Assembly (NCBI RefSeq): GCF_030013595.1
Contig: NZ_CP122768.1
Strand: one strand, 5' to 3'
Source: Escherichia coli
GTDB lineage: Bacteria; Pseudomonadota; Gammaproteobacteria; Enterobacterales; Enterobacteriaceae
Length of the DNA stretch: 64,000 nt
Made by a program: the position numbers. Below, in pieces: positions 39,301-45,300 of the stretch. Numbering within the stretch: the first letter of the stretch is position 1; each line of letters starts with the position of its first letter.

Positions 39301-42300
39301 AATCCATTGAGCGCCTTGCTGAACGAAGGATTATTCAGCTTCCCCCAATGGGGATTTCTGAAAATATCAATGGGTTAGGTTTAACTCAAAAAAGTAAGCA
39401 TTATCTTTTCGAAGGTGAACGAGGCAAACGCGACAGCATCATTGTCGTCGCACGGCTTTGTCCCGAATTCACAGCCCGCCTGGTAGATCGCTGGCGCGAA
39501 CTGGAAGAACAGATCCGTAAGCCAATGAGCGAAATCGAAATGGTTGCCGCGATGGCTCTTGAAGCCGTTCGCCAACAGAAACGGATCACTCAGGTGGAAG
39601 AAAAAGTCAGCCATGTTGCCGAAACAGTCGAGCAAATTAAAAAGGGCACCGTTCGTGAGGGCTATGCCGGATATCGCCAACTGAAAGCGAAAACCGGTTT
39701 GTCAGATGATAAATGCCGCAATCTGGTGAACGCTTATCAAATTCCTACCGATACCCACGAGTTTATGACACCGGATGGATTGTTATCACGTCGCGCAATT
39801 GTTGCTGTGGAACCGTTTATGGCTGCTTTTTATCGGGTTATGGAGGAAGCAGAACCGCGAGGGACTCGCTGGTATCACCCGAAAATGGGGTTATTTCAGG
39901 TTATTGGTTGGCAGCGGTGAAAAAAAGCCGGGCAGTGGCCCGGCTCGCTCAACGTTAGTAAAGGCAACTTCACAAAAGAAGTAAGCCAGTAACATCCAAG
40001 AACATTTGCGTTAGTAAAAATACCAGTAAGCATATGAATGTTTCAAGCCTAAATATTGATTCTGCAATTTCGGGACGTTACACTGTCTCCGCACCTTATA
40101 AAGCGGGTGCCGGGATTGGAACCCCGGAATTGCTCGAGGCGATATACGACGCGCCAGCGTCTTTTTTATCGTCCATGCTCGCGCACGCCAGAATTATGGT
40201 GGGCTGGGCAGGGGAGCCGAAAGGCTCGCCGGTTTCCTTGAGCGCCGGTAGTTCCAACCCTGTTCAGTCCGCCACCAGCGAGCTTGGAACCTCCGGTGGT
40301 GGAAGTTTTTCACTGCTCAAGGAGGCTGCCATCATGGCTACTGTCCCAACTTCCCCATTTCTCAAAATCGAAGTCGTCAACGGCAAGGCCGTTATTTTCT
40401 CTCTGCATGTTGCCTGTCATTTCAAGCGCATGCACCAGAACATCGTCGACAAAATCGAGTATCTGAACTGCTCGCGCGAATTTTTTACCTGCAATTTCAT
40501 ACCGGGTACTTATCACATCTATGGTGATTCTCTGCATGGTTATTACATCACCCTTGATGGTTTGATGATGCTTCAGCTTGGGTTAAGTCTCCGCACAATG
40601 CGGTACTACGAGAGCTGTATTGAAGCATTCCATGAGGCAGAAACTAACCTGAATCACACCGCTTTCCGCCGTAATCAATGGGAGGTGCGCCCATGATTCG
40701 TCGCGTTGTGAATTCTCTGTATCACCGATACAACCGTTGCCCCCGTGTGGGGCAGTGGTTTGCCACCAGCAACGGTCACGTTCTGCGGGTTTGCCTGGTC
40801 AGTACCGAAAGCCAGAAAGTTGTGTGTGAATTACTGGGGCGTAACTACACCATTAGCTATCCGTTGATGGCGTTTCAGTCCGGAAAAATGTTTAAACGCC
40901 TGGGAGGTGCCGTGTGAGTAGCAAAATTCTCGGTAACGTCTGGGATGCATGTGCCGCGTATGGAGTCAAAGGTGCAAAGCTGATGATCATGGCGCGTCTG
41001 GCTGATTATTCGAATGATGACGGGGTGTGTTATCCCGGTGTTGAAACAATATGCCGACAGCTTGGGTTGGGAGAAAGCACAGTAAGAACAGCAATTTCAG
41101 AGCTGGAGGCTGATGGCTGGCTGACGCGTCAGTCACGCCGCAAAGGTAATCGTAATACGTCCAATCTTTATCATCTGAATGCTGATCGGCTTGAACAGCT
41201 TGCCAGAACGGAGCGGGATAAGGTCGCAGAACTAAAACAGCAGCGCAGACTTTCAGTACTACGTGACCCGTCAAAATCTGAACCGTCAGAATCTGAATGT
41301 TCAGGTGTGTTTGACCCTTCAGATTCTGGCAAAAAAACGGTTTTGACCCTTCAGAATCTGGACCCAGATCCACAAGGTTTAAAACATGATCCGCAAGTAA
41401 ATTCAAAACATGATCCGCAAGATATTGGCGCATCCGCTGACGCGTCTGCACCAGCGAGCTCTGCCCGACAGGAATATTCACCGGAATTTGAACAGGCCTG
41501 GCAGGAATATCCCAAACGTGCTGGTGGTAATTCCAAGTCGGCAGCCTTCAAAGCCTGGAAAGCCCGTCTCAGGGAGGGAATAAAACCGGAGACCATGCTT
41601 GATGGTGTGAGACGTTATGCCGCTTGGGTACGTGCTACAGGAAATACCGGCACACAGTTCGTGAAGCAGGCTGCGACGTTCTTTGGACCCGATCGTCACT
41701 TCGAAGACTTCTGGCAACAGCCAGCCGCTCCCGGAGGTGGGCGACAGCGACAGGTCGATGTCCTGGCTGGCCTGGGAGCCATGTCTGACAAATTCGGTAA
41801 ATCCAGTGACAAATTGACATTCTGAGGTGACAGCGATGATGACGTTTAACCTGCGTGAACAACAAAAAAGACTACAGGCGCGAATGGATGAGTTACGGGC
41901 AGAGATTGCATTTGCTCAGAATGAACCGCCCCGGGTTTCCTGGAGAGTGTTTTATCTGTGAACTCAGGCTGCCAGATCATCGTTTCCGATGGAAGCATAA
42001 TAAGCTTTTTCTGCTTCTGCCGGAGGAGTATGGCCCAGCCTTCCCAGCAATCGTCGATTGTTATACCAGTCCACCCACGTTAGTGTGGCCAGTTCCACTT
42101 CTGCACGGTTTTTCCAGCTCTTACGGTGTATTACCTCCGCTTTGTAAAGACCATTGATGCTCTCAGCCATCGCGTTGTCATACGAGTCGCCTGTACTCCC
42201 TGTTGATGCCAGTAATCCGGCTTCTTTTAGTCGCTCCGTATAGGCCAGTGACACATACTGAGAGCCTTTATCGCTGTGATGGATGGTGCCAGACGGACGA

Positions 42301-45300
42301 CGGGCCCACAACGCCTGCTCCAGCGCATCCAGCACGAATGTCGTTTCCATAGACGATGAGACCCGCCACCCCACGATGTATCCGGCAAACACATCAATGA
42401 TAAACGCCACATAGACGAAGCCCTGCCATGTGCTGACGTAAGTAAAATCAGCCACCCACAGCTGGTCAGGTCGTTCTGCCACGAACTGACGGTTTACGCG
42501 GTCGCCTGCGGCAACGGCTTTCCGGCTGACGGTAGTGCGGACCTTTTTACCCCGGAGAACACCGGCAAGTCCCATAACTGCCATGAGACGTGCCACAGTG
42601 CATCTGGCCACTCTGATACCTTCCCGTAACAACTGACGCCAGACTTTACGCACACCGTATACCTGGTGATTTTCATCGTATACGCGCTGTATCTCTTTCT
42701 TCAGCCAGTCATCGTGCTGCGCACGGGCACTGCGTTTATCCGGATGATGTCGCTGTTGCTGACAATGGTAATACGTTGACGGGGCAATATGCAGTTCGCT
42801 ACATACCGGTCCGACCCCGTACTGCTCACGCAGCTTATCCAGCAGTGGCATCATTTTTTCCAGAGGCGGTCGAACTCCGCCTTCGCAAAATAAGCGGAAG
42901 CCTGGCGAAGGATATCGTTACTGCGGCGCAGTTCACGATTTTCACGTTCCAGCTCTTTCAGACGCTGACGTTCAGCGCTGGTGAGCCCACCATCACCGCC
43001 CCCGGTATCCCGCTCATGCTGGCGAACCCAGACACGCAGAGTCTCCGGCGTACAGCCAATCTTTGGGGCAATGGAACAAATTGCCGCCCACTGTGAGTCA
43101 TATTCATCCTGACTTTCCAGAACCATACGAATCGCCCGCTGACGGACTTCGGGGGAAAAACGAGTATTTTTAGTCATCCTGTTTACCTCTTTCTCAGGGA
43201 GTTTAGTCTCCAGGATTTCCGGGGCGGTTCAGAAGGGCGAAAAGCCATGGCCTTATCGTTCCTGCCTGATGCGTGAAGGTCGCGGATATTGCGAAAAACA
43301 CGGTAAATACCATACGCATATACTGGTGTGGAGCGATCGTAATGGCGAGGACAGAGAAAAAATTTCATGCTGCCCTGACTGCTTGATCGCTGAGGCCAAC
43401 GATTTGACCATGGAATTGTCGTCCATCAAGGCGGAAGAGCTGACTGATAACGCCGGAATTGCCCTGCGTTTTCGGGACTGCGAGTTTGATAATTATCTGG
43501 AGGTTAATCCTGACGCAGCCAGAAATCTTGCAGCCTGTCGCCGCTATGCGGAGAACTGGCCAGATATGCTGGAGAACGGCACCAGTCTTGTTATGACTGG
43601 CAGTTGCGGTACCGGGAAAAATCATCTGGCGGTATCAATGGCAAAACACATCATCCGTAACTATCTGGCCAGTGTGGAGATCACCGACGTGATGCGTCTT
43701 ACCCGTGCTGTGAAAAACTGCTGGCGGAATGACAGCGAAAAAACAGCGGATGAAGTTATTGAGCATTATGCGTCAATGGATTTGCTGATCATCGACGAAG
43801 TTGGTGTTCAGTTTGGCAGCGCGGCTGAAATGGCTATTTTGCAGGAAATTATCAATGCCCGGTACGAAAGTATTCTGCCCACCATCCTGATTAGCAACCT
43901 TTCACCGGATGAGTTGTGGGCGTTCATCAGCCCCCGCATTGCCGACAGGATCACAGACGGGGGGCGCAACTGGTTGTCGTTCAACTGGCCCAGCTACCGT
44001 TCTCGTATCAGAGGTGTGGCTGCATGACAATACCAGTCTGGCGTAACGATGACCTGGAAGGCGCTGTTATTGGCGCGTTCTTTCTGCGTGGGGCAGATCC
44101 TGAAGTGATGGATATTCTGGCCACATTGCCGGCGGACGTTTTTTCTGTACGAGCGTATCGGGATATCTACACAGGTATCTGCAGACAGGCCCGTGTTTCA
44201 GGTGTGATTGACCCTGTGCTGCTGTGTAATGAGATGCCGGAACTTGCCCCGGTGATTACTGATACCGGGCGCAAAACCTGGGTGAAGTCGTCACTGGAGC
44301 ACTATGTTGCAGCGTTGCGGCGCAATGCCGCATTGCGCGATGCAGAAAAAACACTGAATGAGGCGTTACAGAAATTACGTGATGCGCATACCTGTGAAGC
44401 AGCTGAAGATGCTCTGAAGGATGCGCAGAACATGATGGCCTCATTGTCGACGGGGAAGGGTATTATTCAGCCGGTACATATTGATGATGTGCTTCCGGAA
44501 GTGGTTGAACGTGTTGAATGCCGGAATCAGGGGCTGGAGAAATCCAGGACGCTGATGACCGGTATTGATGAACTGGACGCAAAAACAGGCGGTATGGAAC
44601 CCGGCGACCTGGTATTTATTGCGGCTCGTCCTTCGATGGGTAAAACCGAACTGGCGCTGGATATCATCGACAAGGTGACTGAGCAGGGGCATGGTGTTCT
44701 TCTGTTCACAATGGAAATGGCGAACATCCAGATTGGTGAGCGCATGGTATCTGCGGCTGGAGGAATGCCGGTATCACGCCTGAAATCTGTCACTCACTTT
44801 GAAGACGAAGACTGGGCACGTTTCTCACAAGGAGTGGGGCGGATGACCGGGCGCAATATCTGGATGGTGGACCAGGCGAACCTGACCATTGACGAGATAT
44901 ACGCAACAACGAAACACCACCTGATTAAACATCCGGAAACGGCGCTGGTGGTGGTTGATTATCTCGGGCTGATAAAAACCCGGAGCACGGGGCGTCATGA
45001 CCTTGCCGTGGGTGAAATCTCAAAGGGGCTTAAAGGCCTGGCAAAATCCGGCGGATTACCGGTGGTTGCGTTGAGTCAGCTCTCCCGCGGTGTGGAGTCC
45101 AGGCCCAATAAACGCCCCATGAACTCAGACCTGAAAAATTCCGGAGAAATAGAGGCGGATGCAGACATCATTCTGATGCTTTACAGGGATGAAGTGTACA
45201 ACCCGGATACGCAGGCCAGGGGCATCGCAGAAATCAATATCACGAAACAACGTAACGGTTCTCTGGGAACGATTTACCGGCGTTTTTATAACGGACATTT

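What the first reader, a model, noticed from the sequence alone, without database searches (positions are those of the whole stretch)
41919..43234. IS629-like element inserted into the 5' end of the DnaC-like helicase loader gene, with intact 3-bp target duplication
Terminal inverted repeats and a flanking GAA direct repeat delimit a ~1310-bp IS3-family element. Removing the IS and one GAA copy restores a continuous reading frame for the loader gene (…AEIAFAQ-KGEKPWPY…). The perfect duplication argues for a recent insertion that probably cripples phage replication.
Basis: seen in the sequence. Interest (0 to 1): 0.45.

Follow-up and report, generated by a model that had tools for sequence, protein, structure and literature searches.

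The report
IS629/IS1203 insertion splitting a prophage helicase-loader gene
A common E. coli jumping gene (IS629/IS1203) has recently landed in the helicase-loader gene of a phiP27-like prophage and probably disables that phage's DNA replication; this is an ordinary, well-known kind of event.

Summary
Window 41922-43231 is a 1310-bp IS3-family element, with its transposase on the minus strand. It has 25-nt imperfect terminal inverted repeats (TG...CA ends) and is flanked by a GAA duplication at 41919-41921 and 43232-43234. It is 100% identical to RefSeq copies annotated "IS3-like element IS1203 family" (IS1203 is an IS629 isoform). It carries orfA, orfB, a DD(35)E triad and the ALIL frameshift pseudoknot.

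Removing the IS and one GAA gives an 879-nt gene that is 879/879 identical to an intact "ATP-binding protein" gene in pig E. coli ETEC1732. That gene is a DnaC-like loader, 96.6% identical to phiP27 "DnaC". It lies between an O-like initiator and a DnaB-like helicase.

Of 282 complete E. coli genomes carrying this gene, 281 have it uninterrupted. None of 5,426 has this junction. The surrounding 17.4 kb of prophage differs from ETEC1732 by one SNP and three homopolymer indels, so the insertion is recent.

The insertion sits at codon 28/29 of 292, inside a conserved N-terminal region. Loss of loader function is very likely. Crippled phage replication is a reasonable inference that was not tested. 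Nothing here is new in kind.

The parts
41919..41921 (.). Left copy of the 3-bp target-site duplication (GAA)
   Evidence: The empty site in ETEC1732 (L001) and rl0044 (L002) has a single GAA.
41922..43231 (-). IS629/IS1203 (IS3 family) insertion sequence, 1310 bp
   Evidence: 100% identical over 1310 bp to RefSeq 'IS3-like element IS1203 family' copies in UMNF18 and O139:H1 W13-16, and about 99% identical to O157:H7 copies. Matches in other genomes end exactly at these coordinates.
41922..41946 (.). Right terminal inverted repeat (IRR, downstream of orfB), TGAACCGCCCCGGGTTTCCTGGAGA
   Evidence: pair I1: 25 nt, 88% complementary to 43207-43231.
43207..43231 (.). Left terminal inverted repeat (IRL, upstream of orfA)
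   Evidence: pair I1.
42851..43177 (-). orfA, 108 aa, HTH transposase N-terminal part
   Evidence: Pfam HTH_Tnp_1, E=2.4e-12. NCBIfam transpos_IS3, profile positions 1-86.
41964..42854 (-). orfB, 296 aa, DDE (rve) catalytic part in the -1 frame relative to orfA; its frame is open from IS nt 315
   Evidence: Pfam rve, E=1.1e-27, and HTH_21. NCBIfam transpos_IS3, E=2e-94. D136, D195 and E231, with 35 residues between D195 and E231.
42780..42896 (-). ALIL pseudoknot, the -1 frameshift stimulator of IS3411-type elements
   Evidence: Rfam RF01497: 119.2 bits against a gathering score of 50, full length 1-117. RefSeq annotates the same feature in identical copies.
43232..43234 (.). Right copy of the 3-bp target-site duplication (GAA)
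41836..41921 (+). 5' fragment of the DnaC-like loader gene (codons 1-28 plus 2 nt). Translation now runs into the IS and stops at 41959-41961, giving a 41-aa peptide.
   Evidence: GAGGTG Shine-Dalgarno sequence 8 nt upstream of the ATG at 41836. PGAP uses this start in intact copies.
43235..44027 (+). 3' fragment of the loader gene (third base of codon 29 to the stop). It contains the Cys/His motif and the whole AAA+ module. The first in-frame canonical start is Met41 at 43269.
40914..41825 (+). O-like / DnaD-like replication initiator gene immediately upstream (context); intact
   Evidence: phrog_270 replication initiation protein, E=2.5e-79. 99.7% identical to the ETEC1732 copy.
44024..45415 (+). 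DnaB-like replicative helicase gene. Its ATG overlaps the loader stop codon (ATGA). Intact (context).
   Evidence: Pfam DnaB_C, E=1.6e-73. phrog_19. 100% identical to ETEC1732.
45669..46052 (+). Q-like antiterminator gene, on the same strand downstream of the replication genes (context for possible polarity)
   Evidence: phrog_79, E=4.9e-52.

Best explanation
A copy of IS629/IS1203 (IS3 family) transposed recently into codon 28/29 of the 292-codon DnaC-like helicase-loader gene of a phiP27-like lambdoid prophage.

How the element works is established knowledge for the IS3 family, not something tested here. OrfA and an OrfAB fusion transposase are made by -1 ribosomal frameshifting, stimulated by the ALIL pseudoknot. 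The DDE enzyme copies the element out as a circle with abutted ends. It then pastes the circle into a staggered 3-bp cut, whose repair gives the GAA duplication.

The sequence shows the following consequences:
- The loader ORF now ends after 28 native plus 13 IS-encoded residues.
- The remaining 264 codons have no start codon of their own.
- The first in-frame canonical start is Met41. It has no Shine-Dalgarno sequence and would lack the conserved N-terminal 40 residues.

The following consequences are inferred:
- No functional loader is made.
- Early-operon transcripts must cross 1.3 kb of untranslated antisense IS. This is likely to reduce expression of the translationally overlapping DnaB-like helicase gene and of Q.
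- The prophage replicates poorly or not at all after induction.
For: IS identity and anatomy:
- 1310 bp with 22/25 terminal inverted repeats and TG...CA ends.
- 100% identical to RefSeq IS1203-family copies that PGAP annotates as intact, with a programmed frameshift.
- orfA carries an HTH domain and orfB an rve domain.
- DD(35)E triad present.
- ALIL pseudoknot at 119 bits.
- 3-4 bp duplications and a preference for prophages are documented for IS629 (PMC3271280). IS1203 is described there as an IS629 isoform.

Insertion event:
- The empty site carries one GAA, and the restored gene is 879/879 identical to the intact allele.
- 281 of 282 gene-carrying complete E. coli genomes are uninterrupted.
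- The junction is absent from 5,426 genomes.
- The flanking 17.4 kb of prophage differs from ETEC1732 by 1 SNP and 3 homopolymer indels.

Target identity:
- phrog_50 'DnaC-like helicase loader', E=9e-89.
- Residues 88-289 align to E. coli DnaC residues 46-242, E=1.4e-29.
- 96.6% identical to phiP27 'DnaC'.
- The gene lies between an initiator and a DnaB-like helicase.

The insertion is intragenic:
- Residues 1-40 are conserved down to a 58%-identical Aeromonas phage homologue; M1, L13, L20, E23, A25, F26, P33 and W34 are invariant.
- Met41 is not conserved.
- There is a Shine-Dalgarno sequence before the ATG at 41836 and none before Met41.
Against: No functional data exist. Several escape routes are not excluded:
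- A Met41-initiated 252-aa product would keep the Cys/His motif (C48, H51, C75, C78) and the complete AAA+ module, so it could retain some activity.
- The helicase gene has its own GAGGTG ribosome-binding site.
- No convincing intrinsic terminator was found on the + strand inside the IS. Terminator-like sites numbered 5, against 2.7 +/- 1.6 in shuffles, so polarity is only inferred.
- Host DnaC or another prophage could conceivably complement the defect.
- Only part of the prophage lies in the window, so its overall competence cannot be judged.
Confidence: 0.9

Rival explanations
1. The IS lies upstream of the real loader start rather than inside the gene. On this view the true start is the ATG at 43269 (Met41), as in the original phiP27 annotation of L18 (252 aa). 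The protein would be intact and only its expression altered.
For: AJ298298 annotates L18 as 759 nt starting at the equivalent ATG. The window has an intact 252-aa ORF at 43269-44027.
Against: Residues 1-40 are conserved at the protein level in homologues down to 57-58% identity, with 8 invariant positions. Met41 is replaced by E, Q or S in three of the four homologues compared. There is a good Shine-Dalgarno sequence before 41836 and none before 43269. PGAP, the RefSeq phiP27 record and other phage records use the long form.
Confidence: 0.04
2. The insertion is real but has little phenotypic effect. The phage helicase would be loaded without this protein, by host DnaC, by self-loading, or by a truncated Met41 product, so the prophage would remain replication-competent.
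For: The AAA+ module and the helicase gene are intact. The helicase gene has its own ribosome-binding site.
Against: The initiator-loader-helicase trio is conserved as a unit in phiP27, many Stx phages and an Aeromonas phage. The loader is uninterrupted in 281 of 282 carriers, which argues that it is needed. By analogy with DnaC and DnaI, the lost N-terminal part belongs to the region that contacts the helicase; this rests on established knowledge and was not tested here.
Confidence: 0.15
3. The insertion acts as a reversible switch. In a host carrying the IS-excision enhancer IEE, IS629/IS1203 excises precisely, removing the IS and one GAA. That would restore the loader in a subpopulation and so gate prophage replication.
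For: IEE-promoted precise excision of IS1203v/IS629 is documented and has reactivated stx2 and bla. iee occurs in EHEC and in swine ETEC lineages (bioRxiv 10.1101/2023.06.07.543989). The relatives of this window are pig isolates. The transposase and both ends of the IS are intact.
Against: No iee gene was seen or sought outside the window, and the rest of the genome is not available. Nothing suggests that selection acts on reversibility. Only one genome carries this insertion.
Confidence: 0.04
4. The apparent insertion is an assembly artefact, with a repeat copy misplaced into the prophage.
For: The source assembly shows three single-T deletions in T runs relative to a near-identical prophage, which suggests error-prone reads.
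Against: Both junctions fall at the exact IS termini and carry a clean 3-bp duplication of a sequence present once in the empty site. Mis-assembly across repeats does not create target-site duplications.
Confidence: 0.01

Closest known systems
IS629 and its isoforms IS1203 and IS3411 (IS3 family) of E. coli and Shigella
   Same: It has the same length (1310 bp) and the same TGAACCGCCCCGG... ends. It has the same orfA/orfB layout and the ALIL frameshift pseudoknot first described for IS3411. It makes a 3-4 bp duplication. It is 100% identical to RefSeq 'IS1203 family' copies and about 99% identical to O157:H7 copies (PMC3271280).
   Different: Nothing about the element itself differs. Only the insertion site is new relative to the 5,426 complete genomes searched.
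IS629 insertions in prophages of E. coli O157:H7, and stx2::IS1203v
   Same: It is the same IS landing in prophage genes and inactivating them. In four O157:H7 genomes, 62% of IS629 copies lie in prophages or prophage-like elements (PMC3271280). IS1203v inactivated stx2 and could excise precisely.
   Different: Here the host background is pig-associated E. coli, and the target is the replication loader of a phiP27-like prophage that carries no stx.
phiP27 L18 'putative replication protein DnaC', and PHROG 50 DnaC-like helicase loaders
   Same: The restored protein is 96.6% identical to the phiP27 protein over 292 aa. It sits in the same initiator-loader-helicase-Q gene order. It has an AAA+ module homologous to E. 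coli DnaC.
   Different: In the window the gene is split by the IS. The original phiP27 record annotates only the Met41-to-stop part. The family scores below NCBIfam's DnaC equivalog cut-off (130.6 against 357 bits). It also has a longer N-terminal region with a conserved CxxH...CxxC motif, so it is DnaC-like rather than a DnaC orthologue.
IS629-like insertion in the DnaB-like helicase gene of the same prophage in pig E. coli rl0044
   Same: It involves the same prophage type, the same IS type and the same orientation (transposase antisense to the early operon). It also hits the replication module.
   Different: It is an independent event in the neighbouring gene, with a 4-bp TTAC duplication.

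Membership tests
IS3 family insertion sequence (IS629/IS1203/IS3411 isoform group) | Length about 1.2-1.5 kb, bounded by imperfect terminal inverted repeats ending 5'-TG...CA-3' | tested here: met
   1310 bp. 25-nt inverted repeats matching at 22/25. Ends are TGAACC...GGTTCA.
IS3 family insertion sequence (IS629/IS1203/IS3411 isoform group) | Two consecutive ORFs, orfA (HTH) and orfB (rve/DDE), with orfB in the -1 phase and a frameshift signal in the overlap | tested here: met
   orfA is 108 aa with HTH_Tnp_1; orfB is 296 aa with rve. The -1 phase and the overlap were confirmed. ALIL pseudoknot RF01497 scores 119 bits. PGAP annotates the identical copy with a 'programmed frameshift'. The exact slippery site was not determined; the T run TATTTTG just 5' of stem 1 is the likely candidate (inference).
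IS3 family insertion sequence (IS629/IS1203/IS3411 isoform group) | DD(35)E catalytic triad in OrfB | tested here: met
   D136 (ADFTY), D195 (HSDKG) and E231 (MAESI), with 35 residues between D195 and E231.
IS3 family insertion sequence (IS629/IS1203/IS3411 isoform group) | 3-4 bp target-site duplication | tested here: met
   GAA lies on both sides, and there is a single GAA in the empty site of two related genomes. A 3-4 bp duplication is reported for IS629 (PMC3271280).
IS3 family insertion sequence (IS629/IS1203/IS3411 isoform group) | Near-identity to named reference copies | tested here: met
   100% identical over 1310 bp to RefSeq 'IS3-like element IS1203 family' copies, and 99.0% identical to O157:H7 copies.
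IS3 family insertion sequence (IS629/IS1203/IS3411 isoform group) | Transposition activity (copy-out-paste-in through a circular intermediate) | not testable with these tools
   Inferred from family knowledge and from the intact ORFs and ends.
DnaC-like (DnaC/DnaI/IstB clade) AAA+ helicase loader of phages | AAA+ module with Walker A and Walker B motifs, homologous to DnaC | tested here: met
   GSCGTGKN and LLIIDEVG are invariant in alignment A1. Residues 88-289 align to E. coli DnaC (6QEL) residues 46-242, E=1.4e-29. Pfam IstB_IS21 and Bac_DnaA both match. phrog_50, E=9e-89.
DnaC-like (DnaC/DnaI/IstB clade) AAA+ helicase loader of phages | Orthology to cellular DnaC (NCBIfam equivalog NF005931) | tested here: not met
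   130.6 bits against a cut-off of 357. The N-terminal 87 residues are unrelated to DnaC. The protein is therefore 'DnaC-like' and not DnaC.
DnaC-like (DnaC/DnaI/IstB clade) AAA+ helicase loader of phages | Encoded next to a replicative DnaB-type helicase and an origin-binding initiator | tested here: met
   O-like initiator at 40914-41825 and DnaB-like helicase at 44024-45415. The same order is found in phiP27, PhiR49_2, PPyecE_EH1910 and AsXd-1.
DnaC-like (DnaC/DnaI/IstB clade) AAA+ helicase loader of phages | Loads the helicase onto DNA in an ATP-dependent way | not testable with these tools
   No biochemical data were found for this subfamily.

The most novel reading that the evidence does not exclude
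The IS acts as a reversible lock on prophage replication. In an IEE-positive pig E. coli lineage, precise excision of IS629/IS1203 (the IS plus one GAA) would regenerate the intact loader in rare cells. The prophage would then be kept silent and harmless in most cells, yet able to replicate and spread from revertants.
Probability: 0.04. Interest if true: 0.5.

Novelty: already known. Interest (0 to 1): 0.1.

Why it matters
It matters little beyond annotation. It marks this prophage as probably replication-defective, which bears on predictions of inducibility and gene transfer for pig-associated E. coli. It adds one more case to the known bias of IS629/IS1203 towards prophage genes. With the independent hit on the neighbouring helicase gene in strain rl0044, it suggests that phiP27-like prophages in pig E. 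coli are repeatedly disabled at the replication module. A useful by-product is a corrected start for the phiP27-type loader: Met1, 292 aa, rather than the 252-aa L18 of the original record.

Tried and rejected
- Alternative IS boundaries. TCAGAA occurs on both sides, so the 1313-bp insertion could formally be placed at several offsets. I rejected this because independent identical copies in other genomes match exactly 41922-43231.
- Met41 as the true start, which would make the IS intergenic. I rejected this on N-terminal conservation and the absence of a Shine-Dalgarno sequence.
- An outward-reading promoter at the IS end that could drive the 3' gene fragment. None was found. The only promoter-like site in 41600-44100 is at 43813-43840, and the count is below the shuffle expectation.
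- Intrinsic terminators inside the IS on the + strand. I found two weak 5-bp stems (41931-41943 and 42653-42668), and the regional count is not above shuffles. This is not usable as evidence of polarity.
- Other IS copies in the window. There are none.
- The same junction in other genomes. It is in 0 of 5,426 complete E. coli genomes. The single 100%-coverage hit, rl0044, is a different insertion in the helicase gene.
- The source strain was not identified. The backbone (1-25000) is 100% identical to the UK pig isolates HCP5S3_I2 and LCP30S3_I5, but these carry a P4-like satellite instead of this prophage.
- I did not run metagenome or GTDB junction scans, structure prediction or large protein searches. 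The question was already settled and they would not change the verdict.

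
Full report
**Observation.** A 1310-bp element occupies 41922-43231.
- Its ends are 25-nt imperfect inverted repeats, TGAACCGCCCCGGGTTTCCTGGAGA and TGAACCGCCCCGGAAATCCTGGAGA, matching at 22 of 25 positions.
- The 14-nt repeat core occurs nowhere else in the 64-kb window.
- GAA lies immediately outside both ends, at 41919-41921 and 43232-43234.
- The IS ends in ...TCA and the left flank reads ...CTCAGAA, so six bases are in fact repeated and the insertion could formally be drawn at several offsets.
- Independent, fully identical copies in other genomes fix the boundaries. They align to exactly window 41922-43231 and diverge outside it.

**What the element is.** On the minus strand the element encodes two ORFs.
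- orfA (43177-42851) is 108 aa and carries the Pfam HTH_Tnp_1 domain.
- orfB (42854-41964) is 296 aa and carries the Pfam rve, HTH_21 and rve_3 domains. It matches NCBIfam transpos_IS3 at 2e-94.
- orfB lies in the -1 phase, and its frame is open from IS nucleotide 315.
- The catalytic residues D136, D195 and E231 have the DD(35)E spacing.
- Rfam finds a full-length ALIL pseudoknot (RF01497, 119 bits against a gathering score of 50) at 42780-42896 on the minus strand. This is the -1 frameshift stimulator first described for IS3411 and at least 27 other IS elements (PMC5009743).
- The element is 100% identical over 1310 bp to copies in porcine E. coli UMNF18 and O139:H1 W13-16. RefSeq annotates those copies as intact 'IS3-like element IS1203 family transposase' with a programmed frameshift.
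- It is about 99% identical to copies in O157:H7 strains.
- IS1203 and IS3411 are described as IS629 isoforms. IS629 makes 3-4 bp duplications, and 62% of its copies in four O157:H7 genomes lie in prophages or prophage-like elements (PMC3271280).

Every defining feature of the family that can be read from sequence is met. Only the comparison with the ISfinder reference entries could not be made.

**What it landed in.** Removing the IS and one GAA joins 41836-41921 to 43235-44027. The result is an 879-nt ORF encoding 292 aa that reads ...AEIAFAQKGEKPWPY... across the joint.
- This restored gene is identical at all 879 positions to the gene for WP_001695597.1 ('ATP-binding protein') in pig strain ETEC1732. 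The site there reads GCTCAGAAGGGCG, with a single GAA.
- The protein matches PHROG 50, 'DnaC-like helicase loader' (9e-89).
- Its residues 88-289 align to residues 46-242 of E. coli DnaC (6QEL, 1.4e-29).
- It is 96.6% identical to the 'DnaC' of Stx2e phage phiP27 and 96.2% identical to proteins of many Stx2a phages.
- It falls well below NCBIfam's DnaC equivalog cut-off.
- Its N-terminal 87 residues are unrelated to DnaC and carry an invariant C48-x2-H51 ... C75-x2-C78 motif.

'DnaC-like' is therefore the right level of naming. The gene lies between an O-like/DnaD-like initiator (40914-41825) and a DnaB-like helicase (44024-45415), whose ATG overlaps the loader stop codon. A small ORF and a Q-like antiterminator follow. 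This is the phiP27 gene order.

**Is the insertion really intragenic?** The original phiP27 record annotates L18 as 252 aa starting at the equivalent of window 43269 (Met41), which lies downstream of the insertion point. If that start were right, the IS would be intergenic. Three points argue against it.
- An alignment with homologues down to 57-58% identity (Aeromonas phage AsXd-1 and PPyecE_EH1910) shows residues 1-40 conserved. M1, L13, L20, E23, A25, F26, P33 and W34 are invariant.
- Position 41 is E, Q or S in three of the four homologues.
- A GAGGTG Shine-Dalgarno sequence precedes the ATG at 41836, and none precedes 43269.

The duplication spans the last base of codon 28 and the first two bases of codon 29, so the insertion lies within the coding sequence.

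**How recent and how common.**
- Of 282 complete E. coli genomes that carry this gene, 281 have it uninterrupted over the region tested.
- None of 5,426 genomes has this junction.
- Apart from the IS, the prophage from 32285 to about 50850 differs from the ETEC1732 prophage by one SNP and three single-T deletions in T runs.
- Every annotated ETEC1732 gene in that stretch except three is full-length in the window, at 99.7-100% identity. The three are the loader, the integrase and a bssS-like gene.

Together with the IS's 100% identity to other copies, this makes a very recent, lineage-specific insertion the only reasonable reading. The perfect 3-bp repeat adds little on its own.

**Consequences: what is shown and what is inferred.**

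Shown by the sequence:
- The loader ORF now ends at 41959-41961 after 28 native and 13 IS-encoded residues.
- The 3' fragment has no canonical start before Met41.

Inferred:
- No functional loader is made, because the conserved N-terminal segment is lost and initiation at Met41 should be poor.
- Transcripts from the early promoter must cross 1.3 kb of untranslated antisense IS. Rho-dependent polarity on the helicase and Q genes is therefore likely, but no convincing intrinsic terminator was found.
- The prophage should then fail to amplify after induction.

Escape routes that are not excluded:
- The Met41 product would keep the Cys/His motif and the whole AAA+ module.
- The helicase gene has its own ribosome-binding site.
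- Complementation by the host or another prophage is possible.

I put loss of loader function at about 0.8 and a clear replication defect at about 0.65.

**Comparison with what is known.** This is a textbook IS629/IS1203 insertion into a prophage gene. The same IS inactivated stx2 and can excise precisely, an event greatly enhanced by IEE, which occurs in EHEC and in swine ETEC lineages. That leaves open, at low probability, that the insertion is reversible in its host.

In pig strain rl0044 the same prophage carries an independent IS629-like insertion in the neighbouring helicase gene. It has the same orientation and a TTAC duplication. This fits the known prophage bias of this IS.

**Verdict.** The element and the type of event are already known, and interest is low.

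Noticed in passing
window 32663 (integrase gene, roughly 32454-33622 on the minus strand): A T6 run in the window corresponds to T7 in the otherwise identical ETEC1732 prophage. This frameshifts the tyrosine integrase at about codon 320 of 390 and removes the RHTFATRH...HY catalytic C-terminus. If real, the prophage also cannot excise. Three of the four differences in 17.4 kb are single-T deletions in T runs, so it may instead be a sequencing error.
   Followed up: partly
window 39079 (bssS-like gene, roughly 38845-39158 on the minus strand) and 32290: Two more single-T deletions in T runs relative to ETEC1732. The one at 39079 (T7 against T8) frameshifts the small bssS-family gene between cro and rha.
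   Followed up: partly
window 41262-41421 (inside the O-like initiator gene): Iteron-like direct repeats. There are four roughly 20-nt copies related to TTTGACCCTTCAGAATCTGG (41262-41361) and two copies of TTYAAAACATGATCCGCAAG (41378-41421). This is probably the phage origin, lying inside the initiator gene as in lambda. It is about 500 bp upstream of the IS and is untouched.
   Followed up: partly
L003 (phiP27, AJ298298) 6121-6879, compared with window 43269-44027: The original phiP27 annotation of L18 'DnaC' (252 aa) starts at Met41. Conservation shows the real protein is 292 aa starting 120 nt upstream. PHROG 22964 (77 aa, 'unknown function') matches residues 2-77 of this loader, so it appears to be the N-terminal part of the family catalogued separately.
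   Followed up: yes
restored loader residues 48-78 (window about 43290-43382): An invariant C48-x2-H51 ... C75-x2-C78 motif lies in the N-terminal region of this phage loader family, which suggests a zinc-binding module. E. coli DnaC has none. This resembles the architecture of DnaI, a comparison drawn from memory and not tested.
   Followed up: no
L002 (E. coli rl0044, NZ_CP121356.1) 4735-6044: In this pig strain the same prophage has an intact loader. An IS629-like element sits in the DnaB-like helicase gene instead, in the same orientation and flanked by TTAC. It is an independent hit on the replication module.
   Followed up: partly
window 1-25000 and L007 (E. coli HCP5S3_I2): The chromosomal backbone (proVWX, nrdHIEF, gab operon) is 100% identical to the UK pig isolates HCP5S3_I2 and LCP30S3_I5. 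Those strains have an extra IS3-family element next to the tRNA at about window 24.1 kb. Between ypjA and ssrA they carry a P4-like satellite with an ABC-three-component system instead of this prophage.
   Followed up: partly
window 46242-47339 (minus strand) and 49443-49517: An OmpC-like porin gene lies on the opposite strand just after Q. A DNA methyltransferase gene and a tRNA-Gly(tcc) lie before the lysis genes. No stx genes are present where phiP27 carries stx2e.
   Followed up: no
window about 50900-58600: The late region (endolysin to head-tail connector) drops to 48-94% protein identity with ETEC1732, while the early region is about 100% identical. This marks a mosaic recombination boundary near 50.86 kb.
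   Followed up: no
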